Part shown: positions 4,301 through 63,706 of the stretch, in pieces
Numbering within the stretch: the stretch's first letter is position 1
How the letters are laid out: each line of letters begins with the position of its first letter
DNA from: Lophium mytilinum
Taxonomy: Eukaryota
DNA: 64,000 bases
Reading direction: 5' to 3'
Assembly: GCA_010093605.1 (NCBI GenBank)
Contig: MU004193.1
Location: 751,520 to 815,519, forward strand
Position numbers and translations under genes: made by a program
The notes under the pieces: model-generated
What the model saw: the letters and a program-made list of their open reading frames with translations, nothing else
Databases searched by the model: none
What the model was told of the DNA's origin: nothing

Positions 4301-4799
4301 AGAAAAAGTAGATAACTACTTATAGAATTAGAAGCGGGAAGTAGTAGGGTAATAAGTAAGAGTTATAGTCTTAAAGTATTTACGTATAATATATAATAAG
4401 CGTTAGCTAAGTTAATAATCTTTTAGGCTTTTTGCACGTTATTAAGGGCTAAAGTTATAAGTTAAGAATCCTTAGTATTAGTTTCTTAGCGTTTCTTACT
4501 AAACTTTATATAGGAGCACCACCTATTTAAATATTAAATTATTTAACGCCCTTCTAATAATAATAAGTAAGGTTTCTTGCCCGTGCTATATAATTACTTA
4601 CTAATATTTTCTAGTATTATAGTAAACCTTGCGCTAGAGCTCTACCTTACCTATACTACTTATACGTGTTGCTATAGTTCTAATTAAAACCCTGTCTTTT
4701 TATCTTAACGCCTTAATATTATATAGCTCCTCTACCTAGGGTAGCCTATAGTAGAAATTACTATATAAGTAAAAGTTATATATAGCTATATATACTATA

Positions 4800-5230
4800 T
4801 ATATAAACTTAGTATAATATAGCGTCCCGGTTATACTGCAATTTATAAAGGTTAGACCCCGTAAGCTTACTTAGGCGGATAAGAATAGAGTCTCTAAGTA
4901 GCTGCTAGAAGAGGGCTAGAGAGACCGGGATAAGATTATTAAGTAGCTTAACTTAGAGTGTAGTATTAAGGTTTTACGGATATACGTCTCTTATATACTT
5001 AAATAGTATAAGTAGACTAGAAAGGCTATAAAGCATTAGTTAAACTAGACTAGCTAAGAGCTCTACTATATCTTTTATAGTATAAACCTAAGAATATCTT
5101 TCTAGATAAGTCTATCTTTAATAAGAAGATAGGCTAGCGCCTATTAGCTAGCCTACTTACTATAAGAATAATATAAACTATAGTAAGATATAGGCTATTC
5201 TCGCCGCTATAATACTATAAGAATAGATCT
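4800..5230 (+). mobile_element. RIP-mutated Tc1/mariner (IS630-like) DDE transposase relic
   Basis: 5102-5140 reads L-D-K-S-I-F-N-K-K-I-G-*-R, which de-RIPs to LDESIFNEKTGWR (first catalytic Asp motif of fungal Tc1-like transposases). An RPRKLT-like segment lies upstream at ~4855. Confidence 0.7.
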
Positions 5231-5479
5231 ATTACTACTACTACTATCTACACCTAGTATATTATAACTTTATTAACTTTCTATAAGCTTTAATTAAGTA
5301 GAGTCTCTATAATTAGTTTACCTATAAGTAGTTCCGCTATACTACTAGAGTTATATATATATAGATAGAGAAGCTAGAGTAGATTTAGGTACACCTAGAT
5401 GCCTATAAGAATAGTAATAGAAAGAATTAGGTTAAGAATAATACTAAGAAGAAGAATAGTAAGGTTAAATTATATTCTC

Positions 5480-5660
5480 TATATAGCTCTTCTATTTTAT
5501 ATATACTCTATATAGTTCTCTTATATTATAGCTTAGCCTTTCTATTTTATATATACTCTATGCCGCTATTAGCTTATAGCTTATATATTAGTAGTAAGAA
5601 TTAATCTAAAGCTTATATATTAGTAGTAAGAATTAATCTAAGGCTTATATATTAGGGTAG
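5480..5660. repeat. Short tandem repeat array (~32-bp unit GCTTATATATTAGTAGTAAGAATTAATCTAAR) with duplicated TCTATTTTATATATACTCTAT
   Basis: Direct repeats visible at 5579-5655 and at 5491/5541. Confidence 0.8.
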
Positions 5661-6909
5661 AGTAAAGATATTAGATAAAGTTTAATAGGTATTATTTAAT
5701 TTCTACTATATATTCTTACCTCTCTTCTACCTCTCTTACTTCTTTAGACTCTATATACTATTAATTACTACTTCTATAATACTATAGCTAATAACGCTAG
5801 TAATTTTAGCTTTATTTCTAGCCTAATTAATAATCTTCTTATAGAACCCTCTCCCTCTCTACCCTCTACTACGCCGCCTTTTAGGCCCTTTAGGGTTCGC
5901 CCGGATCCTCTAGTAATATAGGTAGTAGCGGCCGGGCCGCTCCCTACTAAAAAGAAAATAATAGGCGTTTAAGCTAAAAATAAAAAGCTAGAAGCTTTCT
6001 CTAGTAAGAGCCTAGAGAATTCTAGCCCTTAAAGGCTTTATATAGTGCGTAGTAAGCCTATATACCCCCTTTCTACTTTTACTACTAGTAGAGATATTTA
6101 TAATGTGCCCTACTAGAAGAATAAGAAAGAAGATAATAATAATAAGCCTGCCCCCCCTCTATAGAAGGAAGATAATAAGTCTACGCCCCCTCTACTAGAA
6201 GATAAGAAGAAAGAAAAGAAAAAAAAAGAAAGGCCTAATTCTTCTTAACTATATATAATTCCTAGTATAGTAGCTTAAATATAGCTAACCTATTTATATA
6301 GAAAGCGCTATACTTACTATCTACCTTCTTCTTTTACTATTACTATTATTCTAGGCCTACTAACTCCCTTTTAGTATGCTAATAACCTTACTACTACTCT
6401 TACCTCCTCTACTATTACTACAGCCCTCTAAGAGTACTTCCGCCGCGCTAAGCTTACCTACGTAGAGCTTATTAACGGCTAATATAGCTAGAATTAGGCG
6501 GCCCTAACATGCAGTATATACCTAGAGTGCGCCTAGAATATATCTACTAGAGGCTATTATTAGTATAATATTAATTTCTATACTAATAATAATCTAGGTA
6601 GTAAATATAGTGCGTATAGGGTTATAAGTAAGCGCTATACTTAGGTTAATACTACGGGAGATAGAGTAGTATTTAAGCGGACCCTAAAGCCTAGGGCTAG
6701 TTATGCTAGAAGGAGGGAGAATTAAGCCTAATTAACTATGCATTTAGGAACTATAAATATAACTTTTTAATTCTATAACTACTAATTAATATTATTATAT
6801 ATCTAGTATATAGATGTAAATATACGCGTTTAGATGCGTAATTTAGTTCTCTATTTATATAATTTAGACTTATACCTACTAAGATATAATAAAGTAATAA
6901 ATTCTATCT

Positions 6910-7145
6910 CTATATAGCCTTTCTATCTTATATATACTTTATATAGCCTTTCCGTTTTATATATACTCTATGCAGCCTCTAGCCTAAAATTTAAGTATAA
7001 GTAGTAATAGTAGCGATTCTTATTTTAAGGTCTAAGTATTAGTAGTGGAAATCTTATATTAAGGTTTAAGTATTAGTAGTAAGGATTAATTTCGGGCTTA
7101 AGTATTAGCGGTAAGAATCTTATTTTAAGGCTTAAGTATTAGCGC
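6910..7145. repeat. Second array of the same two motifs (~32-bp TAAGTATTAGTAGT-containing units)
   Basis: Four to five units at 6990-7143, preceded by duplicated GCCTTTC(T/C)...TTATATATAC, matching the 5480-5660 array. Confidence 0.75.
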
Positions 7146-9952
7146 GGGGAAAAGTTACCTATATATTCTAGCCTTAGACTTCTATTCTACCTATCTCTAT
7201 ATATAAGCTTATAATTTTTATTTCTATAATTAGTTAACGCTTTTAACTTATCTAACTATATTTACTATAAACGCGTCTAGTATATTACTACTAGTAGTAG
7301 CCTTCTTAAGTAGGTTATCTATAGACTACAGCGTATATATAATATAGTTAAACTTTTATTCTATATAATAAATTTATTTAATGCCTTATAAATAGGTACT
7401 ATATAAACTCTATAGCTTAAGTATTATAATTTAACGGGCTCTATAAAGAGTGTGCCTAACGCCTAAAATACTAGTAGTACTAATTAGTATTATTAGCGTA
7501 AAGTTTTCTATATACTAGATATTACCGTGCTAGTCCCGCGTAATACTACTATTATTTTTATAGCGGCGTTATCTCTAGAATCTATAGACTGTAGCCTTTC
7601 TCTCTACTTTACTAAGCTATACCCTAAATAATTAAACCTTATAGTGCAGGTATGCTAGTTTTATCTACTTATAGAGTAATAACGCAGCAGCTAGAAAAAA
7701 TATAAGAATTATAAGCTGCTCTAGATAGTCCTTAAGCTTATTAGAAATACTAGTCTAGTTCTAATGCTTATATATAGAATCTATATCTTCTTAGTCTATC
7801 TCTTATATAATTTCTAATATCTTCTAAGTCTTAAAACTTAATGCAGTAATTTTACCGGTAAATCTTTAGTATAGTAAGTTAGAATTAGATAGATACTATC
7901 TCTTTTCTCTAATAGCTTCTATAGTTAACCTATACTTAAGATAGCTATTATATTATAATCTTTTAAGGGCTAGAAAGCTAAATACTAGGCGCTACTAATA
8001 GGTTAGGCTTATAAGTTTACCCCGCGGAAATACTAGTAGGTCTCCCTAACTATCTTAATACTTCTATTCTCTAAGGCTCTCTATATATATTACACGCACT
8101 CTTACTATTATATAATTAATACCTACCTAGACTTTAAGTTAATTCCTTACGTCTAGATAGTAGATCTCTATCTACTTATCTAGTAGAGGAAGCGGTATTA
8201 GAGGCTCCTGCGTATTTATACTACTTACCTAAAGACCTCTAGTCTCTATAGTTTAATAGATTATAACTAGACTAAAAACCTTAGCCTATTATATTACTTA
8301 GATTCTAATCTAGTCTTTAAAACCTTAAAGGGAACTAGTATTATAGTTAGTAAGAATATAATTAAACTTAGCCTAGATATTACCTAGAACGCGGCTTAAG
8401 TATACTATATATACGCTTTAAATCTCTTCCGCTACTTACTCTAACTCTCTTCTTATTTTAATATTCTACTACTGCTCTAGAAACTTAATATATATTATTA
8501 TATTATCTAGGCCTCTATTCTATAGCGTTCTAGATAGTACCTATAGAATAGGCTAGGTGGCAGGGTTAATATATATTATAGCTAGAACACGCTAGAAGAG
8601 ATTAAAACTTAGTAGCTTTTTCTTATAGAATTTATTAACGCTAATTATTCTAAACTATATATAGACCTCTAGAGCATCTTTTAGCTTATAGATTCTATAT
8701 AGTAGCTTCTAGTAATATAATAGATCTAGTATATAGCTCTTAAAAGAAAGTAGTATTATAATAATAAGGTTTTTAGACTAGCCTAACCTTAGGCTATACT
8801 ATATAACGCGAATAGTAGAGTTAGATATTATATTAATCTAAAAGTTTAGTATATAAAGCTTATATTAACTCCGCTTAATATTATTACTAGAACTACTAGT
8901 CTTACGGTACCTAATATAGAGATCTATACTACTATAGCCCGTCTAGCTTTTATTAAAGGTTTTATTAAACTCTTATATCTATTAGCCTTTTAAGGCCGGG
9001 GGAATAATAATTAATATATTTCTCTAGACAGGCTAGAGGCCTATAGAGATACTGTGTAGCTTATAGATATATTATAATAGGTACGCTATAACTCTACTTA
9101 GATATAATATGCCTTAATTGGCGCCTTTATATAGGTATCTACTATTATATATTAGGCTATTAGCTCTATAGGGTTCTAGAATTAACCGGGACTTATTAAC
9201 CTTAGTATAGTAGCCCTCTAGCACAGCGTTTACCTAGTATATTACTAGAAACTCTATAGTTTTTCTAAGACCCTATTTATCTCTATTAAATCCGCCTTAT
9301 ATAGTACTATGCTGGCGCAGTATCTATATAACTACTAGCACTTAGTAAGTATATAGTTATTATTTTAAACCGGGCACTAAGATTCTATTACTTTTAGTAT
9401 CTTCTAGAATGTTAAATAGTATATAAGCTTAGGCCTAGAGCTTATCTATTATATACTTAGTTATTATACTAGCCTACGTAGTCTTTTTCTAAATAACTAT
9501 TTATACTTTACTTTATATATCTATTATATAGCTATTCTATATATTTTTTAATACCTATACGTTACTTTTATTATAGTAGTTATAGCGGGAAAGCTTATAT
9601 TTATATAGTAAATAGTACTTTACTTTAAAATAAATATACTAGAATATAAAAGTAAGTTTATATTTAGCGTAATAAATACTAGTTCTATAAACTTTTACCT
9701 CTACCGCTACCTTAGGTTATACCCCTAGTGTCCGGCGTATAGCGTATATTCTAGAACTAAAATAGTAATTCTATAAAAATAGTATCTAATAGTAAGTATT
9801 CTATTTAAAGAGACCCTAATTTAGCATTTATTTCTCTATCTTTTAATAACTAGGAAAATTATTTATAGTTAGCCTTAACTCTTATTAGTAAATATTAATC
9901 TTTATTCTATATTATACTTATTTTTAAGTTACTAAACTATTATCTTCTAATC

Positions 9953-10178
9953 TAGTACTAGGCTATAAGTCTGGAAATATAGATTTATTATAGCTCGGCT
10001 CTAACTTGCTTACTCGACACCGCTGTTGGGGGTAGCCTGCTACTGAGCAGCTAGTTAGTTAAGAGGCAGTCTAATCTGCACTGCTTGAAGCTTGACATCG
10101 CCCTTGCGTTTTTGAAACCCTGTGGGGGTACCCCAAGCAGTGGCGAACTAGTGTGCCTAGACTTGTGGCCTATTACTG
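9953..10178 (-). mobile_element. Tc1-type MITE, copy 1 (left end RIP-mutated)
   Basis: Ends are TAGTACTAGGCTATAAGTCTGG and GTGCCTAGACTTGTGGCCTATTACTG. The interior aligns by eye with the reverse complement of 41114-41345. Confidence 0.8.
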
Positions 10179-10419: not shown

Positions 10420-10648
10420 CAATCCAACAGGCCACAATTTTGTGCACCCTTAGTCACCACTGCCAGGAGCACCCCAATGGGGAGACCACAACGGAGGCGT
10501 CATGTCAAGTTTTAGACCGCGTAATCTGAGCTTCCTCTTGACCAAGAGATATCCTCGCAATGGGGCCGCCCTTGACGGTGGTGTCCAGCTTGCAAAAGCC
10601 ACATTTAAACAATGATATTCGTGTGCCCAAACTTATGGCCTAGTACTG
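10420..10648 (+). mobile_element. Tc1-type MITE, copy 2
   Basis: Right TIR GTGCCCAAACTTATGGCCTAGTACTG is followed by TA. Left end CAGGCCACAATTTTGTGCAC. The interior is colinear with 41114-41345. Confidence 0.75.
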
Positions 10649-10941
10649 TACCTTTCTCTCTCCATGCCAATCTTAACAGGTACAGACACGCTACTAGACC
10701 AGTCCAGTAGAAACATGTGTCAACAAACTCAAACTGATAAGCGACGATATGGAGTGCGGCAAGAAGCGGGCTCACGCGGTGTTCGAAATGCGGCGAATGG
10801 TCCATGGCGATTGCATTCACTGGAAAGAGCAGAACTTCGACATAAGTTCAAAGTTTGAGGGACCTGCAAAATTTTGACACAACACGACTGCGAAATATTG
10901 ACATCGAAGTGCCAACACCTTCAAACCGACAATACTCCACC

Positions 10942-13460
10942 ATGATTTTCGACAGAACCAACGTGAGCGTCGCGATCGTCCACCCGAACGGAAACGAGTT
11001 TGTCGAGTACGACACAGAGGTCGCTCCTAGCTCCACCAGCTCCACGGGGTGGTACAAAGGCAATGCGAACGTAACCCACGCACGTAAGTGTTCCATCTCC
11101 GTGGAACACAACGAGGAGTATGGCATCAAGGTAGTTCTGCCACCGAATGCTTTGCAAGCACGCCCAGGGTGGGGGGCCCAAGTCTCCATCACTGTCGACG
11201 GCTGCGCCAACGAAAAGGCGTAACTCTCCATCTGACTCGTTTCGTGCCCTACGGCGAGTGGCTGCCCTTGAGGTCGAATCAAAGACAGCAAAAGAACATC
11301 CTCTTTGAGGATTGTGTGGTACGAACCCAACATACAACTTTTACAGGAGAGAGGGAGACGCTCCTGAAGAAGGCCACGTTCAAATTCGTGGCAGTTCGTC
11401 CAGGTTAGTGATCGGCGCACACGATACTGAAAACTATGCTGACCTTAACAAAGCCGACAATCTCTACCTTGACGGATCTTACGAGGCCTCGCAGGCCGAG
11501 TTCATCGGCCGCATCGTAGTCGATGTGCAGATTGGGAAGGCAGAAGAGCTCTTGTCTCCTGCAGAGCCTATCTATGGCCTGACGCGTGAGAACACCATGC
11601 CATGGTGTATCAGACCGGAAAATCCAGTAGTAACAGAATTCGCCTATCGTAAAGGAGTCCACTACTGCACGAAGTAGGTCCACTAGTCATTCGCACCAGT
11701 AGAGTTTCCACTAAACCTTTTGTAGGTTACAGACAACTGGTACAGTGGACGTGGCTCCCACGTCCTCTTACGTATTCAATAGAGGGATTCATTGCGAGAG
11801 AGGTATCAACCACCGGTTCATTTTCTACGCGAGAGACTACGGTAAATTGCGGTCTTACCATCATATTTCCATCAAGAGCAAGTTCTAACATAGATAACAG
11901 CGTATATCACCCTCCCTCGTCTCTCCTCTGTAGCAGCTGAGGACCCCGTTATGGCAGAAGATTTCGCCCAAAGATACGGAGACGTCGAAGGATCGATCAA
12001 TCCATACGGGAAGTTGCAGTACGAGCCCGCCTCGGCGTCCAAAGAGGCCACTCAACGTGAGCGCTTCCTTACCTCAACCCCACAGCCCGTCCGTCTAGCG
12101 CCTCCAAAAAAACGCAAACAAGTCTACTCGAAGCGGCGCGTGAGTCAACAAACACCGGAGTCTGAGCACGATGCGGCTTTAGACCACGTGTCGAAGCGGC
12201 TCAAGTCCGCCACGTTGACTCCGCAACCTAAGAGTCGTCGTCACACACAGGTATCTCGTGCCAGCACTCATATAATTAATTGTTCTCGCGGTTCGTCGCA
12301 AACAGCGGCCTCCCAGCGACCCCTTCGATCCCGTACCACTGCACACGCTTCCGTCGCCAGTGGTCGTACTCCGTCCAGAGACCAAACTTTTGTTGACATC
12401 GACATGTCAGAGACCCTCAGCGTTGACTATGCTCACGCCGAGCACCTCATAACGTCCACGGAAGAGCTCATCACCAACCCCACCCTCACTTCAGCCGGCC
12501 CCATTCAACCGCCTGCACGCCTTCAAACTATTGCTGAGGAGCCCTCGCCCTCTGAACTGACCGGCAGAGCCACTCACGCAGCTGCCCCGAAACTGGACCT
12601 CACGAAAGAGGAGCTCAAGGACAAAGCGTTCTTGGCCCTTGCTATGGAGTCGGTGATCAACGCCAGGCATCGTGAGCTGCGGCAGGCCGAGATCGACGAG
12701 CTGGAGACGAAATACAAGCTCGCCCTGCTCCGTTGCGAGAAGTCGCAGGAGAAGTCGCAGGAGCCGGCGGTGTATGGCGACGAGGGGTGAGGACTGGCTC
12801 TGGCGGAGAGGCAGATTTCTGGTAAGACGACGGGTTGGGGGTCTTGCTGACCTTGGTCAGCACCGGGTATTGTTTTTTCATTCTTATCTTGATTTGATGT
12901 TTTTAATGATAGGTTGCTTGCAAGTCTGGAATCGGGCCTCTCCCGCCCGTTGCCTCGCCCGCGGTCCCCCTCGCCTCCCCGCTCCGACGATGAGCTCGTC
13001 TCAGACGAGTATCTGGGCGGCTTTTTAGCCGAGTCCGGGGAGTCGTCGTTCTACGGCGACGCTGTAAGAATACCTGTATGATGTCTTGTAAAATGCGTAC
13101 TGAATGCAATCTTTAGCCAAGTGAAACTTCCTCGGCGCGAGAGCGTTGAGATGCCCGCCCGGAAGGAGTCCTGGACTCCGACGACGAGGACCTGATCCTC
13201 GAGGCCATGCCCGAGGCCGGGGGGGAGGCTAAGGCTAAGGTCAAGGCCAAGGGCGACGACGACGACGAGCCCGCGCTGAAGGTAGCTATGGCTGATCTAG
13301 TTGCATGATGTTTATATTACTAACATGTCTTTAAGCGCCGGCGCCTGCAAAGGGGGCTGCGGCCCAGAAGCCCGTTAGAGGACGGAGAAAGTAAGAATGA
13401 ACACCTCTTGTCTCGTGTATGCGTAGGATGCATTGCTAATACTTTAAGTGAAGACGCGGC
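10942..13460 (+). pseudogene. Multi-exon DUF7918-like hypothetical protein gene with apparent frameshifts
   Basis: N-terminus MIFDRTNVSVAIVHPNGNEFVEYD...EEYGIKVVLP...VSITVDG...ATFKFVAV resembles fungal DUF7918 proteins. Intron 11404-11453 (GTTAGT...GCTGAC...AAG) joins ORF frames correctly, and further introns follow. A 279-aa exon lies at 11951-12790. Frame breaks occur near 11214, 12784 and 12966. Confidence 0.55.
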
Positions 13461-13903
13461 TTAAAAGCCAAAAATATTTAACGACAGTCTTTGATAACGT
13501 GCCTTCGACGGCATGACTTCCCTTTTCATGTATCACCTACCGGTTGCATGTATCTTACTTTTGCCTCAACTTCATAGTAATGCTCCTCCCAATACCTCTG
13601 TGTAGCGCTAATGTCGCCGAGAATTGTCTCTCCACTCCTGCCTTGATTCCACGTGCATTTCACGACCGGGTGCCCGTAAGTCTAAAATCAGGTACCTCAT
13701 AACTCTGTATTGGGTTTAAGATGACGGCGTCAGGAGTGGCCCAGTGCTGGTTCCGGCTGCAAGAACTTCACTCCTAACTCGACCGCAATTCAGCTGCTTC
13801 TTCCATTACACTTCTAATTAGAGCTGATATACAGTGTCTGCTCAATATTCGAATGATCCTTGGTGGACACTTTTCGTAGGCCTCCAGTGCGTATCGTAAA
13901 CCT

Positions 13904-13988
13904 ACGACGCCGCGGAATCGAACTCGCAGAGAACAGACTTAGGGAGTATATCAAACGTCTCTGCTTTTATCCTTGAGGCCATGTACGT
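13904..13988 (-). tRNA. Degenerate tRNA-like sequence (probable pseudogene)
   Basis: Minus strand has TGGCC..GGATA (A-box-like), an AGAC/GTCT stem around a loop with a possible short intron, and GAGTTCGATTC (B-box). The acceptor stem pairs poorly. Confidence 0.3.
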
Positions 13989-14180
13989 GACCATTTCAAG
14001 CTTTTGACGACGCATCACAGGACCTAAAGTTCAAGTTTTGCAGACGCATCACATGACCTTGTTTAAAGTTCAAAATTTTGCAGACGCATCTTCAAACTTT
14101 TGCTGACGCATGTTGAACTTTGATCCGGCGTTTCAGATCTTTAACGATGCATCACATAACCTGGTTCAAACTGTGACAGA
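13976..14180 (+). repeat. Left arm of a long inverted repeat built from TTCAAA(C/G)TTT and GACGCATCACATGAC modules
   Basis: Repeated GACGCAT(C) modules, colinear with the reverse complement of 18990-19280. Confidence 0.85.
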
Positions 14181-14415
14181 CGATCATTCTCGATTCCGGC
14201 AGTAAGTGTTACTGAGAAAAGGCTGACAAGGAAATGAAGCTGTGGCTTAACCGGCTTGTTGCTTACTTTACGCGGATTTCTTCCAGAGTTGGAATGCCAC
14301 ATGCCATACGATCTCGGACAGTATCCCGTAACTCAGAAAGATCTGGGGTATCACTCGTTGCATAATTTCCAGAGATTCTTTTGAGGCTATGTAGCACCCG
14401 CTGATAATATTGCTT

Positions 14416-15979
14416 TTAGATCACGCTCTCCACGTCCGTCCCCTCCCTCCGGACGGAAAACTCTGTGGTCTTCAAAATTCCAGTGTCCCACTCCGCAGCC
14501 GGCCCTTCCTCTTCGCTCGCCACGTCATCTCCGCTTCCTCCACAGCTGTCATCGTGGACTACCAGCCCCCTCGTACTTCCATTCCGTATACTCCGGTTGG
14601 TTGTACTGTGGGAGAAGCCCGGATCCTCTGCAGACTTGGTCGATCTTATAACGTAAATATCTTCGACTTTGTCTCTAATACTGAGCTCTTTCAGCACGTG
14701 TGTACTGGTAGGTTCGCGAACGTATCCACGGCGGCTGCCTCGCCATCCCGACTCCCCTGGTGGAGGAGTTACTGATCCGAAAAGTCGGCCTTTGGCGAGG
14801 AAGTCTCGGAACAGTGGTCGCAGAGTGCCAACAGATGCTGCAAACAGTCCCAGTCCAGGTTCGATGGTGCCCCAAATTGACACATCAGCGACAGCGTACG
14901 TTATGTCGCCGCTCGTTTCTATGTGGTGGACATATGGCGTCCGGACGGCAGCTGCTATTCCTGCACTTGAGCAAGGTCAGTTCGTTTCTCTAAGATTGCT
15001 TCTTAAGTACCGGTCAGAGATTTGCTTTCACTCCCTTATCAAATCCCTGTGGTTCATTGAGAGTTGTATGCAAGTCTTTGGCCAGGCACGGTGACATCAG
15101 TCTCTCCGAGCCGTGAGAGTTCACTTACAGCATTCCCATTCCGAGCACTGCAATAATGGAGACCTTGTCTCTCGGCGTCAGACTAGATCCCCGGATAATA
15201 TACCACGGCAGAATGGCGAACGTGAAGTCCGCAATGACTGCATGACCAACATACACATACAGAATAATGGTCACTCCAGTTCCGTCGACGATGCACGTGC
15301 CATTTGTGGTGTGCAGAGGATTGTATCGCGTCCAGAAGTACTCGATTGGGCGGCACGAGAACATCATCAAAACAGTTGTGACCACAGTAAAGAGAACTGT
15401 GACCACTACTTGGGAGTAGATGATGTAGCGCTGGTATCGCTTTACTGCGATACGTAACAGTAGCGCACTGACAGAAAGCTTGACCAGGGCTGTGGTTGAA
15501 AAAAAGAATATATCATTGATGTAGAAGTCCTGCAGCAGCATTAGTTGGCTGACATCTGATACACAGCGTCGCGCAAGCGTACCTTGATCACCTGCTCAAC
15601 TTGACTTGGTGAAAGGTCGGAAACGTGTTTGGTAACACCATGCTTTATCGACTCGAATACAAAGCTGGTGTATATCGTAAAAAGCACCTATCAGATCGTC
15701 AACCATGCTTGCAGACTTGTGCAGGCGCTTAGAACAATGTTTTTAGAGTCCCTCAGATGGCGCCCAAGCGATTTGAGGTCGCAAATGATGAAGAGGGATG
15801 CGAGAAATGCAAAGCCTTTGCGTATGACCTACCAATGCGGCAACAGCAAGCCAGTCATCTAACCCAAAAGACCTGAGCATTCGCACTCGCACGTACGTCC
15901 GAAGCATCATCGACAGCCATGCCAGACTGAGGAACAGACTCGTTACCGCGGTGAGTTGCGGGCCTCGATTTTCCGCCAT
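14416..15979 (-). CDS. PTH11-like integral membrane protein (fungal rhodopsin domain, no CFEM), 4 exons
   Basis: Motifs LRTYVR..GLDDWLAVAAL, LVKLSVSALLLRI, SCRPIEYFW, ADFTFAILPWYI and SIWGTIEPGLGLFAASVGTLRPLF. GT-AG introns join the ORF pieces. Confidence 0.9.
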
Positions 15980-16927
15980 TTCGGTACTTATCTTAGACGC
16001 AGGGAAGGCTGGAAAACCGAAATCCAGCGCTCGGCCGCAAGTATATCTGGATTCTGATTTTTCATGGCATCTGACGGGCCCGGGAGGAATCCGTAAACTC
16101 TCTTCCCGGGCGGTCGTGGCTTGCTTTGACGGCGCTGTAAGTGGATGAACATAGCCCCTTTATTGACTTCTCTAACGTTCTCCAAGCCGCCGTCCTGCGT
16201 CAGGCCCTGAAACTAAGCAAAGTTTTCTAGGGTTCACACGTTGCTGCGTCTGTGCGGTGCTGGATCAGTGCCTGGTTCTCCGCATTCCCCACATTCATGC
16301 GGATCAACGCTCCAATCCTGACTGCTTTTGGACTCTCCATTGGAGAAAATTGTCTTCCCGCTAGGTGCCGTACAGGGGTCGGATCGTTTGACGAACCGAA
16401 CGGACTGATTTCTTACGTGCTCGCGGTGCAAAGTGTTCGCCTGCATAAACTTTGAACTGCCCGTCAGAAGAATCTTACTTGTCGGTATGCGAGCCAACGC
16501 CCGACTTCCACTCTGGAACATAGTGCTCACTATGTGGAGATGATCATCAAAAGGTATACACACCTTTTCCTATTGGTTGAGTTTCGCTATGTCGAATGCC
16601 TTCTCCGCAAATCCCCAGCCTGATGATTCTCACTATTTTGATCTTCCCTTTCCCCGCGAGCAGCGAATAAATATCCCATGTATATCAACCACCTACTAAG
16701 CTTCGTCCCTGTCATCGCCCTCCAGATTCCACTGCATTTCCGAAGCATTGCCTCCCCACATCGCCGAAGCATGAATATGTATCCCCACGGGGAAGCCTGG
16801 CTTTATGTAGTACCCCAGATACTTCAGCCCGGCACTTTCTTAAATACGCCTCAGGATCTAGACGTTAGGGCCCTAGTACCGGATACTCCCGACTATTCCC
16901 GGCCAAATCAAGAGCCGTTCAACCATC

Positions 16928-18779
16928 ATGGAGAAAGAAGAAGTACCGACCCCTGAGGCCCGTGGGTCCGGACCTGTGTCCGAGAATCATGAGCACGTGG
17001 AACACATCCCCGCCGATGTTTCGGACGCAGAATTCAAGTGGGATTTTGACATCATTGTGAATCTGGCTGCGCTCTATATCGTCTTCTTTGCGTCAACATG
17101 GATGTTGATCGTCCCCAGCTCTATTATTGGATTCATCACAGAAGCTTTCCCGACCGAAGCTGACAAGTCAGTATGGATTGCTACCGCGATCACCATATCG
17201 AACTGTGTTCTTTCGTCCTTTGTGGGGTTGCTCTCCGATATCCTAGGTAAGTGTGGTAGGTATCTTGAGTTCCTAGATGCAGCTAACGAATGCAGGCCGT
17301 AAGGTATTTGTCCTGATTGGCATGGTCTTGGGCTTGATAGGAACGCTTGTTTCCAGTCGAGCAAATGGCATGGAGCAGGTGATCGGAGGACAGGTACTCT
17401 CCGGCTGTGGCCTTACCATAGGATACCTTGCCATCGCCCTGACACAGGAGATCGTACCCAAAGACAAACGGCCCATCACACAAGCAATCACTGCTGTGGC
17501 CGCCGGAGTCGCGACCATCATAGGCCCCATTATCGGCGGCGCCTTTATCAAGCATGAAGTCGGAGGAGTAAACAACGGCTGGAGAGGGCCCTTCTACCTT
17601 GGAGCCGGTTTCTTCTTCATCGCCTTCTTCACAACGCTATTCTTCTACAACCCCGGACCCCGACCAAACCCAGAGAACCTCCCCATAAAGACCCGCCTCG
17701 CCCACGTCGACTGGCTTGGAATCTTCCTCGTCGCAGCCGGTCTGACACTCTTCCTAGTAGGCCTCTTCTACGGCGGAAACCCCGACAAATGGACCTCAGC
17801 ACGCGTCCTCGCGCCCCTTATCGTCGGCGCCATCCTCCTCATCATCTTCGGCATCTACGAATGGATCGGCACCAAGACCGGCCTGCTCGCCCACGTCCTC
17901 TTTAAGCACCGCAACTTTCCCATCGCCCTATCCCTCAACTTCGTCGGCGGCATCGTCCTCTTCGGCGGCCAAGCCTTCCTCCCCCAGGAAATCATCCAGC
18001 TCTACACCTCAGACGCGGTGCTGACCGGCGTGGACAACCTCCCCTTCAGCATCTCCGCCGTCGTCGGCGGCGCGCTCCTCTTCGTCGCCTTCCTCTTCAC
18101 CAAAAACGCAAAGCCCATCACCATCGTCAGCCTGAGCATCATCATCCTCGGCTCCGGGCTCATGGCCGTCATGGAGCCGCACATCAACTACGCCGCCTGG
18201 TTCTTCCCAACCGTCCTGCTCGGCCTCTCCGTCGGCCTGCAGACCGCCGTCGTGCCGCTCATCGTCAGCGTCTGCACCCCCAACCACGCCATCGGCACCG
18301 CCATCATGATCTCCAACTCCGCCCGCTCCTTCGGCGGCAGCATCGGCACCGTCATCTTCCAGCAAATCTTCGCGCACAAGATCAAGGAAATCCTGCCTAA
18401 GAAAGTCGTCCCCGCCGTGCTGAAAGCCGGGCTCCCCCAAACCTCCCTCCCCTCGCTGCTGGAGGCCTTCGCGGCGCAGAGCCAGGCGCTGATCGCGCAG
18501 GTGCCGGGTTTCACGCCGGCTGTCTACGCGGCGTTGACTAAGTCGGCGGCGAAGGCGTACGCGGATTCGTTCCGGTATATCTGGTATTCGCTGCTGGCGT
18601 TTGCGTGCGCGTGCACGATTCTGAGTTTCTTTTTGGAGTCGACGACGGCGATGATGACGCATGAGGTTGCGGCGCAGGTGGAGCATGGGCATCATCATAT
18701 TAATCCGCTGCATCATGAGCACCATGAGAATGGGCATCCGGAGCATAAGCATGATCATGAGCATAAGGAGGAGGTGTGA
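16928..18779 (+). CDS. MFS drug/toxin efflux-type transporter (TRI12/DHA2-like) with His-rich C-terminus
   Basis: Intron 17247-17295 joins LSDILG|RK (MFS motif A). Also GWRGPFY, DWLGIFL, many TM segments and AYADSFRYIW. Confidence 0.92.
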
Positions 18780-18989
18780 GGGGGGGAGGATAGGGATGTT
18801 GGTTACGAGGATATGACAGGCATTGCATAGTGAGAGCGGTTTGGAAGTCGGCGATTTGATAGCGAGTATGTACTTTGATATGATGATACCAGGAATGAAG
18901 TCGTTTGCTACGTGGATATTATCAGCGTCAAAGTTCTGATAGAAGTGTAACACTCCTCACATAGCGGTGCAAAGTTAAACCCTTTGACA

Positions 18990-19280
18990 AAACTCTGGAA
19001 ACGCGTCGTTAAAACTCTGAAAGCTGGTTTAAAGTTCAAACTGCGTCGTCAAAAGTTTGAACATGCGTCGTCCAAAGTTTATACCAAGTGAAACTTTGAA
19101 ATACGTCATGTGATGCATCGTCAAAACTTTGAAAGCTATTTCGTCAGAAGTTTGAAAATGCGTCGTCGAAACTTTGAACCAAGTGAAAGTTTGAAATACG
19201 TCATGTGATGCGTCGTCGAAAGTTTGGAAGCCGAGTTTGAAAATTGCGTGGGCGAAATCTTGAAGAAAGCTACGTGGCCT
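18990..19280 (-). repeat. Right arm of the long inverted repeat
   Basis: Repeated ATGCGTCGTC(G/A)AAA(C/G)TTTG modules and a duplicated CCAAGTGAAA(C/G)TTTGAAATACGTCATGTGATGC. Ends TACGTGGCCT, the inverse of AGGCCATGTA at 13976. Confidence 0.85.
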
Positions 19281-19800
19281 GTTTGCAAACCCCATTTATC
19301 ATTGCTGAGCGAGACCATGCACTTGAAGTATCAAGCTGGGGGCAGACGGACCGAAGAAGATGGGTGGTCCAGTGCCGAGTGGTAAGATATGAGTTCGGCC
19401 GATGGTTTATGGCCTAGACTCATAGGATGCTCGAGTGAGCGACGGTATCGTCTCTATGGGATACCTCAAATATCAACTTGAACTTCCGGTGCGAGCGGCG
19501 GTACGTGTAGAGTAACTTTCTTCATCACAGTGCTGGCTGTGTAAGACATAGATTGATATAGGCTAATCGAAAGTGCAAAGAAGCAGGTGACGTTCTAGAA
19601 ATGCGACGACAAGCATGAAAGAGGTATCAAAGCAGCGCACCTAGATCTGCGGTTTACAACATACAACAAAAGAAAGAGCTCAGCATTTCGCAGAAGTTGG
19701 AAGCTAGCACGTTTTTCTAAGTTATTCCTTGCGCTCATCGCTGGGCTCTTCTTGGATTGACCTTACGGAGTTAGCATATGGATCTAAAGGTACAGTTGTG

Positions 19801-20634
19801 CTAATTGGATGAATGACTCACTATTTGTCTCATCCAGCCAATAGCTGATTGGCAATTCTCTGCAGTTCGCACAAGTACCATTTGTACATGGTAAGAAACA
19901 CCCTCGTCCTCTCGACCACCATCATCCACTTGGTCACCTTCGGATGGGAAAATGACAATCGGGATGATGCTTGGTTTCTTGGACGGTCCGTAATGTATAC
20001 GATGTGGTTTTCGGTCCGCCAAGGCCATAAGATCTCCGGGCAGAAATAGGATTTGTTTCTGCTCTTCTAACGGGCTGTGGTCACTGTAATCTTCCCCCTT
20101 TGCACGATCTGGCGTAAGCAGTCCCGATGATGAAGAACGGCGTCTATTGCTTTGAGAGCTCGGACTTCTTTTCTTAGCTGATCGCTGTTGCCAATACAAC
20201 GCAGTTTCATTAACGTCCTCAAGTAAGGACGATTTTCTTTTCAACGATACATGTCGAACTCCAAGCTCAGGGTCGTCTATGACTTGGCTGAAGTACTGGG
20301 CACTCTTCTCAATGTCCTCGTCATTGAGCCGCCGGTTGAAGTCGAACCGAATATCTAGGTATGCGTTGTGGGGGTCTCGGAACTCGGGATTGGGAAGTTC
20401 AGAGGTCTTATTCTCCTTAGACAAGGGTTGTATATCGATGTGCTTTCGATTAGGGAACTCTCTGTTGAACAGGACTGGACGTTGGCCATCCCTGCCGAAA
20501 TTGGGTTCGGCTTCGATCATGTTTCTCAGTTCCTTGGTCGTGAATGTGGCTTTTGTACTTAGTTTCTTCAGTGCTATTATCAACGCGGATGTAAAGGAGT
20601 GCGGACCCGGGCGGGGGGTGGCCTGGCGTGACGC
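19801..20634 (-). pseudogene. 5'-truncated fragment of a probable caspase-like (peptidase C14-like) fungal protein
   Basis: The open frame starts right after a TGA with ASRQATPRPGPHSFTSALIIALKKL...FTTKEL...PNF...PVL, a motif I associate with the C-terminal part of fungal caspase-like domains. No upstream exons are evident. Confidence 0.45.
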
Positions 20635-20893
20635 TCAGTAGCTACGTAAGACGGAAGCTGATGCCGCATCTACGTACTCATACGTATGAAGCTGTATATA
20701 TCTACACGAATTGACGGTGTAGGTGCGGAGGAGGATGCCGAGCCTATAGATCAGATAGATCTACATGAGGATCTACGGGTTAAAGCTTCCTGAGGCCGTA
20801 GCCCGCAGTCAAATCCTAAGTGGACGATCTTTGGCCTCCACAGTACCTGTTCTTCTAGAATCTGGACGCGGTCGCAACTTCAATCGTTCTGTG

Positions 20894-21149: not shown

Positions 21150-23018
21150 CTACTTGGCCACGCCAGTTTCGTGAAGGGTCGCCCGAGGTCCATACAGTGT
21201 CCCAATCTGCACGTTTCGCCAGCCTCCCGTCTTTAAATCGAAGAAGCTTCCCAAGCATCCCATGTTCAGGGACCGCAGTCGTCCTTCATACTCGTACCCG
21301 TACTGGCTCCTGCGATCATCGGCGCTCTCAAACGGAGAGACGGGACAGCTATCGAGATATCTCAACATGTTGGCTTTAGCTTGGAATGTTGTTAGAGAAT
21401 CCATAGACCAATATGGGTACCGTGGTTTGTGCCTGACAAGTACTGATGTGTGTGGTACGCCGGCAGTCTCTAGCGCTTCGCAGAGTGGTATAATCACGCG
21501 CTCGTCGTACCCCCTAATAGCAGAGAAGACCTGGCCGCTAAATATGATCTTGATATGCAGATCGCGATGGCCACGTTTGAGGAGGTCGGAGAGCAAGTCT
21601 ATCCATTTGCTGTAATTTCGCAAACTAGGCGCCCATGGTTCAAGCTGATCAATGAGCAGAAACCGTATGAGACTAAATTTAGCGTCCGGTATTCGGCTAA
21701 TCGTTTGTCGGATGCCGTCAAAAGAACCGGTTTGAAGAAAGAACTGATTACTGCCGTAGAAAACTTCCTTGGCGAGCGTAGACATGTGGTGACTAACGCT
21801 GAATAACGAGTTTGCGCTCCGATTGCACGTGCAAGTACTCGAGTATTGGTGGTCCTCGTTACAGGTACAGGAGCAGCACGGCATAGAGGTGTTGCATGTG
21901 TGGCAACATCCAGTAATCAAAGGTACCATGTGACCTCGACTGGATACACGTATGCCACGTGCATCTGAGGCTAGCTTTTGGAATGGCTCAACCTTATTCT
22001 TAAAGACCAGGCCGGTATGCGAGAGAATCATCAGTTGTACCTCCGTCGGAAGTTTGAGGAAGGGAAAGCCAGGGCTCGGTTTGTCGCTGTGTCCAGACGA
22101 CGTGGGATGTGATGGTTTTCTTGTAAGATCCTCGACTGTCGATCTCAAGAGCTTCGAGACTGTGGGTTTCACGCTCTCTGAGAGGTCTCTACGATTCCCA
22201 GCCTTCAACCTGAGGTTTCTGAGTCCAGGAGTCTTCAGAGCTTTGAGAGGGGCTAGGAGCGCCTCAAGCGTGGGTATATCCTTGATAGAAAACTCCACTC
22301 CCAAGTCGAGCTCGTGAAGCGTACAGTATTTTCCCAGTTGCCGACACAAGTCTTGCCATGGCTCCAAGCATCTTAAAAAGGCGCGCTGGTCTGAATGGGA
22401 ACCCCGAGCATGACTCAATTTGGGTGATCTTGAACGCATCAAGAACACATGCAAAAATCTGAGTGCAGCCAAAGCCCGGACGCTGAGTTGCTGAAAGATT
22501 TCCATACTCCGCCAATCGTGTGAGGCCACCGAAAAGACGTTTTCCCCGTAGAGTATATCAGTACCCTCCCTGTTGAACTTGCGACAGACAAGAAGTATTG
22601 ACGTTGGAAATCGCTCATGACCGCAACCATAGACTTTCCTTCTGTCGCCGAGTCGAAATATGCTAGACAACGCTGTCGGCACAGACTCGCACGCGCAAGA
22701 GTCATCGGAATCGTACTGATACTCCGAATCGTACTGATACTCTAAATCGTACTGATACAATGCGTTATGTCGCCATGTAACGCACGTGTCGTGATATTTT
22801 CCACTTAGGTCTTCGAGTTCATGTCCCATTTCCCGAATCTGCTCGTAGAACCTGTCAGTCGAACTTGTACAGACACGCCCTTCTTCGTGAGCCAAGCTGA
22901 TCGGGCATGTCCGCACCAATCCGACTTTTCGAAAGATTTGTGCTCGAATTTCGGCCGGGAGGCCTAGCAGTGTCGCGCGTGGTTTGGGCTCACGCATGGC
23001 TCCTAAATCGTCGGTCAT
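21150..23018 (-). CDS. Hypothetical protein with two F-box-like/DUF7730-like modules
   Basis: Long single-exon ORF containing LLGLPAEIRAQIF...SILLVCRKFNREGTDILYGENVF and FPFLKLPTEVQLMIL...SLFSVSHHMSTLAKEVFYGSNQF. The start is uncertain (first ATG used). Confidence 0.8.
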   Translation of the reverse strand: MTDDLGAMREPKPRATLLGLPAEIRAQIFRKVGLVRTCPISLAHEEGRVCTSSTDRFYEQIREMGHELEDLSGKYHDTCVTWRHNALYQYDLEYQYDSEYQYDSDDSCACESVPTALSSIFRLGDRRKVYGCGHERFPTSILLVCRKFNREGTDILYGENVFSVASHDWRSMEIFQQLSVRALAALRFLHVFLMRSRSPKLSHARGSHSDQRAFLRCLEPWQDLCRQLGKYCTLHELDLGVEFSIKDIPTLEALLAPLKALKTPGLRNLRLKAGNRRDLSESVKPTVSKLLRSTVEDLTRKPSHPTSSGHSDKPSPGFPFLKLPTEVQLMILSHTGLVFKNKVEPFQKLASDARGIRVSSRGHMVPLITGCCHTCNTSMPCCSCTCNEDHQYSSTCTCNRSANSLFSVSHHMSTLAKEVFYGSNQFFLQTGSFDGIRQTISRIPDAKFSLIRFLLIDQLEPWAPSLRNYSKWIDLLSDLLKRGHRDLHIKIIFSGQVFSAIRGYDERVIIPLCEALETAGVPHTSVLVRHKPRYPYWSMDSLTTFQAKANMLRYLDSCPVSPFESADDRRSQYGYEYEGRLRSLNMGCLGSFFDLKTGGWRNVQIGTLYGPRATLHETGVAK

Positions 23019-23339
23019 TCCGGCAAAGGCCTGGAAGTATGGTGAGGTTTTAGGTAGGTCGGTTACTTTGAAGCTTGGTTCCACGGTGGTCTTTTGGTGT
23101 GAAGTAGGTCTCGGTGTCCTTAGAACTACACTGTGAGCTGCGATTAAGTTTAACTAGAGCTAAGAGCAGGCGGTGTAAAGTACGTTCCAGGAGCCGGGAG
23201 ACCCAAGTTGAGTGCCGTCGATCTTCGGTAGTTAGATGTCGTGGTGGTGTGTGTAGGTAACGTGGTAGCCTTGGTAGCCTGGTAATAGTGGTCGCTGACT
23301 CACCCATTCTCCTAGACTGGCGACTGGAATACTATATTT

Positions 23340-43330: not shown

Positions 43331-43480
43331 TCACCGCTACTTGCAATTTGACATCGGACCTGGACTTTGAAGCCCTCATGGGGGTGTCCCAGACAATGCC
43401 AAACGGTGTTACCACGGATCATTGCTTGATTTCATTCAAGGACCATGGTCCACACCTAAATTCGATTGGCCAACCAAAAC

Positions 43481-63702: not shown

Positions 63703-63706
63703 GATA

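What the first reader, a model, noticed from the sequence alone, without database searches (positions are those of the whole stretch)
13976..19280. 5.3-kb receptor plus efflux-pump cassette enclosed by long colinear inverted repeats
Seen: 13976-14180 and 18990-19280 are inverted arrays of the same modules. The inner ends align closely (GACGCATCTTCAAACTTTTGCTGACGCATGTTGAACTTTGATCCGGCGTTTCAGATCTTTAACGATGC versus the reverse complement GACGCATGTTCAAACTTTTGACGACGCAGTTTGAACTTTAAACCAGCTTTCAGAGTTTTAACGACGC), and both outer ends read AGGCCAYGTA. Between them lie exactly two intact divergent genes (PTH11-like and TRI12-like MFS) and no transposase. Established: foldback, Mutator and CACTA-type elements have modular long TIRs and can capture genes. 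Inference: a non-autonomous gene-carrying element, or an invertible cassette, moving a sensing/detoxification module. No perfect TSD is seen (TGA|GGCC...GGCC|TGT is one mismatch from a 3-bp TSD).
Basis: partly seen in the sequence, partly recalled or inferred. Interest (0 to 1): 0.85.

Follow-up and report, generated by a model that had tools for sequence, protein, structure and literature searches.

The report
Flipped fungal gene pair with repeat-marked ends
Two neighbouring fungal genes, a membrane receptor and an efflux pump, appear to have been turned around in place in this species, and the mirror-image repeats on either side mark where the DNA broke; it is a tidy small inversion, not a jumping gene cassette.

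Summary
13976-14180 and 18990-19280 are mirror-image copies of one ~200-nt segment built from ~22-nt modules. The right copy carries an extra 95-nt tandem unit. They enclose exactly two intact divergent genes, one PTH11-like and one TRI12-like MFS.

The transposon reading is not supported:
- No target-site duplication exists in any register.
- No transposase family matched the ORFs tested in the window.
- The arms are not a repeat family. About 45 Mb of contigs from the probable source hold only one other 34-nt match.

The window's MFS is 100% identical to a Lophium mytilinum protein. Consecutive protein accession numbers give the gene order caspase-domain gene, PTH11-like, MFS in both Mytilinidion resinicola and Lepidopterella palustris. 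In the window the order is PTH11-like, MFS, caspase-like gene. So the pair is old and stays beside the same neighbour, but it is flipped in Lophium. The arms sit at the two ends of the flipped block.

Best reading: a lineage-specific 5.3-kb in-place inversion whose breakpoints carry an inverted duplication. It was most likely made in the same event, as in the staggered-break model. Less likely, pre-existing inverted repeats recombined.

No DNA of the relatives could be read, so gene orientation and whether the arms exist there remain untested. Interest is modest.

The parts
13976..14180 (+). Left arm: about 200-nt array of ~22-nt modules (TTCAAASTTTYGACGACGCAT type, some with a CACATGACNT extension). 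It is the mirror copy of the right arm and starts 236 nt beyond the stop codon of the PTH11-like gene.
14416..15979 (-). PTH11-like integral membrane protein gene (Fung_rhodopsin domain, PF20684), four exons, intact. It is 80-86% identical per exon to Mytilinidion resinicola KAF2807253.1, except for one short 49% segment (window 15819-15583).
   Evidence: Pfam; tblastn of P0084
15980..16927 (.). 948-nt spacer between the two divergent start codons (presumed shared promoter region; inference). It holds no arm modules.
16928..18779 (+). TRI12-like MFS transporter gene, 600 aa, two exons (intron 17247-17295), intact. It is 100% identical to the NCBI protein KAF2492735.1 and 91% to the M. resinicola orthologue.
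18990..19280 (-). Right arm: the same module array in the opposite orientation. It starts 211 nt beyond the MFS stop codon and holds an extra 95-nt tandem unit (19046-19140 / 19141-19235, 80 of 95 identical).
19738..20685 (-). Flank marker: the C-terminal half of a caspase-domain (Peptidase_C14) protein gene, convergent with the MFS gene. The annotated 241-aa product is KAF2492736.1. The N-terminal ~208 aa with the C14 domain has no match anywhere in the window. Its orthologues lie next to the PTH11-like gene, not the MFS gene, in two relatives.

Best explanation
The 5.3-kb stretch is a native, conserved two-gene block (PTH11-like receptor-type membrane protein and TRI12-like MFS pump, transcribed divergently). 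It was turned around in place in the Lophium lineage. The two arms are an inverted duplication of one ~200-nt tandem-repeat-bearing segment sitting at the two breakpoints.

The mechanism I commit to, with odds of about 0.45 of the total, is that the duplication was made by the inversion event itself. In this model the breaks on either side of the segment at one breakpoint were staggered. The overhangs were filled in and the ends rejoined in the flipped order, leaving one copy at each end in mirror orientation. This is the staggered-break model described for Drosophila inversions. Afterwards the two copies diverged to about 77% identity and the right one gained a 95-nt tandem unit.

Shown: the mirror copies, their near-uniqueness in the genome, the intact cargo, and the changed gene order relative to two relatives.

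Inferred: that accession order equals map order in the relatives, that the event was one inversion, and how the duplication arose.

The confidence given (0.72) is for the general claim, an in-place inversion bounded by the arms, whichever way the arms arose.
For: (1) Gene order.
- In M. resinicola the accessions run caspase-domain protein KAF2807252.1, PTH11-like KAF2807253.1, MFS KAF2807254.1, all on a 1,325,604-bp scaffold.
- In Lepidopterella palustris they run OCK77316.1, OCK77317.1, OCK77318.1, all on a 38,979-bp contig.
- In the window the order is PTH11-like (14416-15979), MFS (16928-18779), caspase-like (19738-20685). There MFS = KAF2492735.1 and caspase-like = KAF2492736.1. This one checked case shows that accession order follows map order.
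- Lepidopterella belongs to another family. Caspase, PTH11, MFS is therefore the older order and the Lophium order is derived.

(2) Orthology.
- MFS: 547 of 600 identical to M. resinicola and 74% to Lepidopterella.
- PTH11-like: 86%; M. resinicola against Lepidopterella is 131 of 280 identical, colinear.
- The two caspase-domain proteins are the two best non-self hits among 301 hits in 1.84 billion representatives (E 2.7e-53 and 2.1e-43).

(3) The arms lie at the two ends of exactly the flipped block and are mirror-colinear end to end.

(4) The arms are not a dispersed family. The 64-kb window holds no other copy. At 80% likeness the ~45-Mb contig sets of runs X1 and X2 add only one 34-nt piece.

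(5) No TSD.

(6) Published context.
- The arm size (205 and 291 nt) is within the range reported for inversion-linked inverted duplications in Drosophila: median 321 bp, 46 bp to 1.9 kb, mean identity 88% (passages of PMC1885836).
- Dothideomycete gene order evolves by frequent intrachromosomal inversions whose breakpoints lie near simple repeats (passages of PMC3516569).

(7) The arm differences are 14 transitions to 28 transversions, so they are not RIP-like.
Against: - No nucleotide sequence of any relative could be read. The flipped order therefore rests on protein accession numbering. That numbering was checked for one adjacent pair in the window only.
- Gene orientation in the relatives is unknown.
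- The second flank could not be traced. The left neighbour ORF 11951-12790 was never searched for relatives; its exact sequence is not in the protein collection.
- The only homologue of the DUF7730 ORF further right is 44% identical and lies 153 accessions from the pair in M. resinicola.
- A move of the caspase gene to the other side of the pair would give the same order. It would leave the arms unexplained, however.
- The staggered-break model predicts duplication of unique sequence. The arms are instead internally repetitive, and a 34-nt solo copy exists elsewhere. That fits a pre-existing repeat somewhat better.
- The arms are 77% alike, lower than the Drosophila mean.
- The Lophium caspase-like gene has also lost its N-terminal half. 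The locus has therefore seen more than one event, and a more complex history is possible.
Confidence: 0.72

Rival explanations
1. The two arms were already present as inverted copies before the inversion. They could have been two copies of a small non-autonomous repeat or a duplicated minisatellite. Ectopic homologous recombination between them then flipped the block. The block could in principle have flipped more than once. (This is a sub-variant of the in-place inversion; its odds are part of the 0.72 given for the general claim.)
For: - The arms are built of tandem modules, like a repeat rather than ordinary unique DNA.
- One solitary 34-nt module copy lies elsewhere in the genome.
- Dothideomycete inversion breakpoints are enriched for nearby simple repeats (PMC3516569 passages).
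- ToxhAT in Bipolaris was found inverted precisely from TIR to TIR (PMC6737239 passages).
- The gene-order change and the arm positions fit this model as well as the best explanation.
Against: - It needs two earlier insertions or duplications of a sequence that is otherwise almost absent from the genome, placed symmetrically around the pair.
- The present 77% identity with many indels is poor substrate for homologous recombination. Any such event must therefore be old.
- No second orientation is seen in the one sample laid, though contigs cannot exclude it.
Confidence: 0.27
2. One reading: the arms are the long, modular terminal inverted repeats of a non-autonomous DNA transposon (foldback, Mutator, CACTA or hAT-like). 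The element carries the two genes as cargo and has moved, or can move, as a unit.
For: - The arms are long inverted arrays of ~22-nt subrepeats of unequal length. This resembles the transposase-binding subterminal arrays of such elements (the resemblance is recalled, not tested).
- Both outer ends read GGCCAYGTA.
- The cassette lies 4 kb from a 10-kb AT-rich, RIP-like repeat block.
- A gene-carrying TIR-bounded element, which includes an MFS gene, is known in Dothideomycetes: ToxhAT (PMC6737239 passages).
Against: - No TSD in any of 45 x 45 boundary registers.
- No CACTA or other known terminus. The shared 9-mer looks like a decayed module.
- No transposase family among 33 ORF pieces of the window.
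- No second copy of the arms or the cargo at 80% likeness or more in ~45 Mb.
- The pair lies beside the same caspase-domain gene in three genera of two families. It has therefore not changed locus.
- Three more distant MFS relatives have no PTH11-like neighbour among the 18 ORFs tested and no module core.
- A metagenome scan for the module found nothing.
Confidence: 0.08
3. The arms are selected cis-acting elements. They would be arrays of protein-binding sites, such as boundary, terminator or enhancer elements, kept in the 3' flank of both genes. Both transcripts or flanks would then carry the same sequence in the same sense. The inversion would be unrelated or secondary.
For: - The arms start at nearly the same distance beyond the two stop codons, 236 and 211 nt.
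- The modules are spaced about two helical turns apart and each holds a small palindrome and a TGACG-type core (read; motif meaning is recalled, not tested).
- The gene pair is conserved, which would suit co-regulation.
Against: - No module occurs in the shared promoter region or anywhere else in the window.
- There is no evidence of conservation in relatives, which could not be tested.
- There is no Rfam family. The left arm shows no unusual fold (z 0.16) and the right arm only a weak one (z -2.2).
- The same-sense arrangement is automatic for any inverted repeat around a divergent pair.
- The coincidence of the arms with the ends of a flipped block is left unexplained.
Confidence: 0.05

Closest known systems
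Inversions flanked by inverted duplications of breakpoint sequence (staggered-break model; Ranz et al. 2007, PMC1885836, passages read)
   Same: - The flipped segment is bounded by mirror copies of a short, otherwise essentially single-copy non-coding segment.
- The copy size (205 and 291 nt) is inside the reported 46 bp to 1.9 kb range.
- There is no TSD and no mobile-element gene.
- The copies have decayed by substitutions and indels.
   Different: - This case is in a fungus and the flipped segment is only 5.3 kb (two genes), against chromosomal-scale Drosophila inversions.
- The duplicated segment is itself a tandem array of ~22-nt modules.
- Arm identity (about 77%) is below the Drosophila mean of 88%.
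- The ancestral single-copy state has not been seen here.
Mesosynteny of Dothideomycetes: gene order reshuffled by frequent intrachromosomal inversions with simple repeats near the breakpoints (Ohm et al. 2012, PMC3516569, passages read)
   Same: - The class of fungi is the same.
- The rearrangement stays within the chromosome.
- Repeats sit at the boundaries of the inverted segment.
- A small block keeps its internal order while its surroundings differ between genera.
   Different: - That paper reports low-complexity repeats (such as dinucleotide repeats) within 500 bp of breakpoints and leaves the mechanism open.
- Here the boundaries carry a matched mirror pair of a complex ~200-nt array. 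That is a more specific footprint.
ToxhAT, the 14.3-kb TIR-bounded gene-carrying element of Pleosporales (McDonald et al. 2019, PMC6737239, passages read)
   Same: - It is in Dothideomycetes.
- Inverted repeats enclose several host-type genes, including an MFS transporter.
- One isolate shows an inversion exactly from repeat to repeat.
   Different: - ToxhAT has 74-bp TIRs about 92% alike, a hAT-like transposase gene and many partial copies.
- It shows presence/absence and different locations between isolates and species.
- Here there is no transposase, no copies, no change of locus, and the arms are 200-290 nt and about 77% alike.
Foldback, Mutator-like and CACTA elements with long or modular terminal regions
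   Same: - Long inverted terminal regions are made of short subrepeats.
- The two ends are unequal in length.
   Different: - The defining TSDs (8-11 bp for Mutator, 3 bp for CACTA) were tested here and are absent.
- The CACTA termini, multi-copy families and autonomous partners were also tested here and not found.

Membership tests
Class II TIR transposon carrying cargo (foldback / Mutator-like / CACTA / hAT-like, non-autonomous) | Terminal inverted repeats at both ends | tested here: met
   Mirror-colinear arms 13976-14180 and 18990-19280. No distinct terminal motif beyond a decayed module.
Class II TIR transposon carrying cargo (foldback / Mutator-like / CACTA / hAT-like, non-autonomous) | Target-site duplication directly outside the termini | tested here: not met
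   Zero combinations of terminal match (7 of 10 or more) with a perfect direct repeat of 3 nt or more, or a near-perfect one of 7 nt or more, in 45 x 45 boundary registers. Among 300 random control pairs the mean was 0.13.
Class II TIR transposon carrying cargo (foldback / Mutator-like / CACTA / hAT-like, non-autonomous) | Other copies of the ends in the genome (a family, or an autonomous partner with the same ends) | tested here: not met
   At 80% likeness, the contig sets of runs X1 (45.4 million letters) and X2 (43.6 million) add one 34-nt piece only. No other copy in the window. Zero metagenome matches to a 25-nt module pattern. Copies below 80% would be missed.
Class II TIR transposon carrying cargo (foldback / Mutator-like / CACTA / hAT-like, non-autonomous) | Different location, or presence/absence, between relatives | tested here: not met
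   The pair is adjacent to the same caspase-domain gene in three genera, by accession order. Strain-level polymorphism is not testable: only the probable source runs were found.
Class II TIR transposon carrying cargo (foldback / Mutator-like / CACTA / hAT-like, non-autonomous) | Transposase gene inside or nearby | tested here: not met
   No transposase family among 9 + 24 ORF pieces scanned with Pfam. The AT-rich block 1-10000 was not scanned.
Inversion with breakpoint inverted duplication (staggered-break type) | Segment orientation flipped relative to outgroups | tested here: met
   Caspase, PTH11, MFS in M. resinicola (KAF2807252-254) and L. palustris (OCK77316-318), against PTH11, MFS (KAF2492735), caspase-like (KAF2492736) in the window. 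This is an inference from accession order, with no DNA of the relatives.
Inversion with breakpoint inverted duplication (staggered-break type) | Mirror copies lie exactly at the two ends of the flipped segment | tested here: met
   The arms enclose only the two genes. The homology does not extend inward or outward.
Inversion with breakpoint inverted duplication (staggered-break type) | The duplicated sequence is otherwise unique in the genome | tested here: inconclusive
   No other arm-length copy was found, but one 34-nt solo match exists and the segment is internally repetitive.
Inversion with breakpoint inverted duplication (staggered-break type) | Un-inverted relatives carry a single copy, at one breakpoint | not testable with these tools
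   No fungal genome DNA of the relatives is held. Both metagenome scans and the run search gave no relative of the locus.
Programmed invertible switch (site-specific recombinase with inverted sites) | Recombinase gene at the locus and both orientations in one population | tested here: not met
   No recombinase family in the Pfam scans. No joint or second orientation in the contigs of X1 and X2, though contigs drop rare variants.

The most novel reading that the evidence does not exclude
The arms may not be a passive scar. They could be the ends of an old cargo-carrying element, or a recombination-competent inverted-repeat pair, present around the PTH11-like/MFS pair throughout Mytilinidiales. 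In that case the receptor-pump block would be a recurrently flipping, and potentially excisable, unit. Its orientation would change which gene faces which neighbour.
Probability: 0.1. Interest if true: 0.7.

Novelty: new member of a known kind. Interest (0 to 1): 0.3.

Why it matters
Gene order in Dothideomycetes is known to be scrambled by many small inversions within chromosomes. The 2012 eighteen-genome study left the mechanism open and noted only simple repeats near breakpoints (PMC3516569, passages read).

This locus is a compact case that can be resolved to the base. A two-gene inversion carries a matched mirror duplication at its ends, which is the footprint expected if the break itself makes the duplication. 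If the relatives prove to carry a single copy of the array, this would be direct sequence evidence for that mechanism in fungi. It would also give a search image, single-copy inverted duplicates around small blocks, for dating and counting such inversions.

The case also warns that 'inverted repeats around intact genes' in fungal genomes need not mean mobile cargo.

Tried and rejected
- Whole-genome search: no genome is held for this window.
- Earlier findings of the scan, by arm DNA, MFS protein and place: nothing for this genome.
- Public runs: two were listed, both the probable source, so no strain comparison was possible. Laying their contigs showed no joint across the cassette. The break of the X1 contigs inside the right arm, and a 76-nt fold-back contig at depth 3, are taken as assembly effects at a small palindrome.
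- Metagenome scan for a 25-nt module pattern: 0 matches.
- Metagenome scan for MFS relatives: 3 loci at 43-54% identity. None of the 18 ORFs tested from them is PTH11-like, and 0 of 3 loci hold the module core. They are too distant to bear on the locus.
- Inversion that split one tandem array into two halves: rejected. The arms align end to end in the mirror register, which is the best of 196 rotations.
- Larger inverted structure (13336-13382 / 20063-20114): not significant in blastn.
- RIP as the source of arm divergence: rejected, 14 transitions to 28 transversions.
- RNA gene, tRNA or structured element in the arms: no Rfam hit in the arms, no tRNA, and fold z-scores of 0.16 and -2.16.
- Flank synteny through the DUF7730 ORF: the only hit is 44% identical and 153 accessions away, so it is uninformative.
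- Exact-sequence look-up of ten flank ORFs: three are in the collection, and none has a relative in its 90% cluster.
- Literature on gene capture in fungi: the ToxB case is Helitron-like and not comparable.

Full report

Yes. Reading 13700-14500 and 18700-19600 shows arrays of a ~22-nt module of the type TTCAAASTTTYGACGACGCAT. Some modules are followed by CACATGACNT.

- The module AAACTTTTGACGACGCAT (up to 3 mismatches) has 8 matches in the 64-kb window. Three lie on + in the left array and five on - in the right array, with none elsewhere. The expected number is 0.04, and 0 of 100 shuffles reach 8.
- The repeat finder lists the arms as its top inverted pairs, and a 95-nt tandem duplication inside the right arm.
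- blastn of the left half of the region against the right half gives three hits with E below 1e-4. All three are inverted and inside the arms. The best is 72% over 177 columns, E 2.5e-20.
- A search of the whole window with either arm finds nothing else better than E 0.36 by blastn or E 1.2 by nhmmer.

**2. Are the arms mirror copies, or merely two pieces of a periodic array?**

They are mirror copies.

- With one 95-nt unit left out of the right arm (done by coordinates inside a script), the arms align end to end. The alignment has 142 matches, 42 mismatches and 33 gap positions, score 57. Two hundred shuffles give -17.9 +/- 5.9.
- The mirror register is the best of 196 circular rotations. 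The direct orientation scores at most -2.
- The arms are therefore two copies of one ~200-nt segment. This rejects the idea that an inversion simply cut one tandem array in two.
- Identity is even along the arm, 0.73-0.83 per 41 nt.
- The differences are 14 transitions and 28 transversions, so they are not the work of RIP.
- The shared outer GGCCAYGTA reads as a decayed module core, so I give it little weight as a terminus.

**3. The cargo.**

- On the minus strand lies a four-exon PTH11-like gene (14416-15979; Fung_rhodopsin PF20684, E 6.7e-19 and 2.8e-6 on two exons).
- On the plus strand lies a two-exon TRI12-like MFS gene (16928-17246 and 17296-18779; TRI12 E 1e-33).
- Both are intact. They are divergent, with 948 nt between the start codons.
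- The arms begin 236 and 211 nt beyond the two stop codons.
- None of the 33 ORF pieces of the window scanned with Pfam matches a transposase or recombinase family.

**4. Tests of the transposon reading.**

- TSD. I scanned 45 x 45 pairs of possible element boundaries around the proposed ends. I looked for a terminal match of 7 of 10 or better, together with a perfect flanking direct repeat of 3 nt or more, or a near-perfect one of 7 nt or more. None was found. Among 300 random control pairs, 9.7% gave at least one.
- Copy number. No whole genome is held. The run search listed two runs, both marked as the probable source. Their contig sets hold 45.4 and 43.6 million letters, about a genome's worth.
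- Laid on 13556-19855 at 80% likeness, these contigs cover the stretch once. They add only two foreign pieces. One is a 37-nt match inside the MFS coding region. The other is a 34-nt match to 19200-19233 with 2 mismatches, followed by module-like letters.
- The arms are thus not a repeat family in this genome, and the cargo has no second copy. Copies below 80% would be missed.
- A metagenome scan for a 25-nt module pattern that hits the window three times exactly found nothing.

**5. Relatives.**

- The MFS exon 2 is 100% identical to a protein that NCBI names as from Lophium mytilinum (KAF2492735.1, scaffold of 1,795,902 bp) and 74% identical to one of Lepidopterella palustris.
- The same 90% cluster holds the Mytilinidion resinicola orthologue KAF2807254.1, which is 547 of 600 identical with no gaps.
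- The PTH11-like exon finds M. resinicola KAF2807253.1 (86%) and L. palustris OCK77317.1. The two relatives' proteins align colinearly, 131 of 280 identical.
- In both relatives the two genes have consecutive accession numbers on one scaffold: 2807253 and 2807254, and 77317 and 77318. The pair is therefore old and adjacent in two families of Mytilinidiales.
- Three more distant MFS relatives from metagenomes (43-54% identity) have no PTH11-like neighbour among the 18 ORFs tested and no modules.

**6. The decisive comparison.**

- The ORF just right of the right arm (19804-20631, minus strand) was searched against 1.84 billion representatives. There were 301 hits with E up to 0.001.
- The first hit is the species' own 241-aa model.
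- The next two are a 491-aa M. resinicola protein (47%, E 2.7e-53) and a 487-aa L. palustris protein (43%, E 2.1e-43). Both carry a Peptidase_C14 domain.
- Their accessions are KAF2807252.1 and OCK77316.1. The window's own model is KAF2492736.1.

The orders are therefore:

| Species | Order (by accession or map) |
|---|---|
| M. resinicola | caspase (252), PTH11 (253), MFS (254) |
| L. palustris | caspase (316), PTH11 (317), MFS (318) |
| Window (Lophium) | PTH11, MFS (735), caspase-like (736) |

- The last pair shows, for the one case I could check, that accession order follows map order.
- In both relatives the PTH11-like gene lies between the caspase gene and the MFS gene. In the window the MFS gene lies between.
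- L. palustris is the outgroup to the two Mytilinidiaceae. The window's order is therefore the derived one.
- One inversion of exactly the two-gene block explains this, and the arms sit at exactly its two ends.

**7. How it most likely happened.**

A mirror duplication of an almost unique ~200-nt segment, at both ends of a flipped segment, with no TSD, is the footprint described for most Drosophila inversions.

- There, staggered breaks at a breakpoint are filled in and rejoined, so the sequence between the breaks ends up at both ends in inverted orientation.
- The reported copies are 46 bp to 1.9 kb (median 321 bp) and on average 88% alike (PMC1885836, passages).
- In Dothideomycetes, frequent intrachromosomal inversions with simple repeats near their breakpoints are the accepted source of mesosynteny, with the mechanism left open (PMC3516569, passages).

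I therefore take the arms as made by the inversion, with odds of about 0.45.

The main rival, at about 0.27, is that two inverted copies existed first and recombined. The repetitive build of the arms and the 34-nt solo copy elsewhere lean that way. Their near-absence from the rest of the genome leans the other way. Together these two give the 0.72 I put on an in-place inversion bounded by the arms.

My rough estimate is that 23% mismatch between the arms is compatible with an origin after the Lophium-Mytilinidion split (9% protein difference in the MFS). This is inference, not measurement.

**8. What remains of the mobile-cargo idea.**

Little remains. The pair keeps its neighbour across three genera. 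There is no TSD, no family and no transposase. A TIR-bounded cargo element does exist in this class: ToxhAT, with 74-bp TIRs, a hAT-like transposase, many partial copies and varying location (PMC6737239, passages). The present locus lacks each of those mobile features. I keep the idea at 0.08. The arms could be ancient ends present in all three genera, and only the relatives' DNA can exclude that.

**9. Limits.**

- No nucleotide sequence of any relative was available.
- Gene orientation in the relatives, the second flank, and the presence of arms there are untested.
- The left-flank ORF was never searched for relatives. The DUF7730 ORF further right has only a 44% homologue, 153 accessions away.
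- The locus has seen at least one more change. The Lophium caspase-like gene matches only residues 209-478 of its M. resinicola counterpart, and the C14 domain half is nowhere in the window.
- The supplements of the cited papers were not opened. Table S3 of PMC3516569, on repeats at breakpoints, may bear on how typical this case is.

**10. Verdict.**

The transposon interpretation is not supported, and the 'invertible cassette' alternative is right only in the evolutionary sense. This is a new, clean example of a known kind of event. Its interest is modest.

Noticed in passing
window 19738-20685 (-): The caspase-domain gene next to the cassette is truncated. Only residues ~209-478 of the M. 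resinicola and L. palustris orthologues match, at 42% and 40% identity. The N-terminal Peptidase_C14 half is found nowhere in the 64-kb window. The remnant still has an open frame and is annotated as a 241-aa protein. This suggests a second rearrangement or deletion near 20.7 kb.
   Followed up: partly
window 10427-10649 (+), 36417-36619 (-), 41107-41346 (+), 63700-63918 (+): A separate dispersed ~220-240-nt repeat family has four copies in the window (mean column identity 65%). It holds an internal inverted motif, CACCACTGC ... GACGGTGGTG. It is unrelated to the arms and may be a MITE- or SINE-like element.
   Followed up: partly
window 1-10000: A 10-kb AT-rich block (GC 0.26-0.32, against about 0.5 elsewhere) with many degenerate tandem and dispersed repeats. 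It looks like a RIP-degraded repeat island and ends about 4 kb left of the cassette. It was not scanned for transposase relics.
   Followed up: no
contigs of runs X1 (record 6) and X2 (record 9), not in the window: One solitary 34-nt copy of the right-arm stretch 19200-19233 (2 mismatches) lies elsewhere in the genome, followed by GTTCAAAGTTCAAAGTTCGAACC. By my estimate it is too good to be chance. Neither main reading predicts it, and the contig could not be fetched.
   Followed up: no
window 42236-42847 and 43137-43336: A ~150-nt tandem repeat of about 2.6-4 units, 64-73% alike, with a further diverged copy 400 nt downstream. It lies in a region of ORFs without Pfam matches.
   Followed up: no
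window 19028-19061: The X1 contigs break inside the right arm. A 76-nt contig at depth 3 (against about 155) reads the same 30 nt forward and back. This is probably a sequencing or assembly fold-back at the small palindrome AAAGTTCAAAC...GTTTGAAC, not an inversion signal.
   Followed up: partly
window 21153-23153 (-): This long ORF with DUF7730/2EXR/F-box-like matches has a single homologue at E 1e-10 or better in the 5.8-billion-protein search. That homologue is 44% identical, in M. resinicola, on the same scaffold as the pair but 153 accessions away. The gene is fast-evolving or paralogous, and the arrangement is consistent with intrachromosomal reshuffling.
   Followed up: partly
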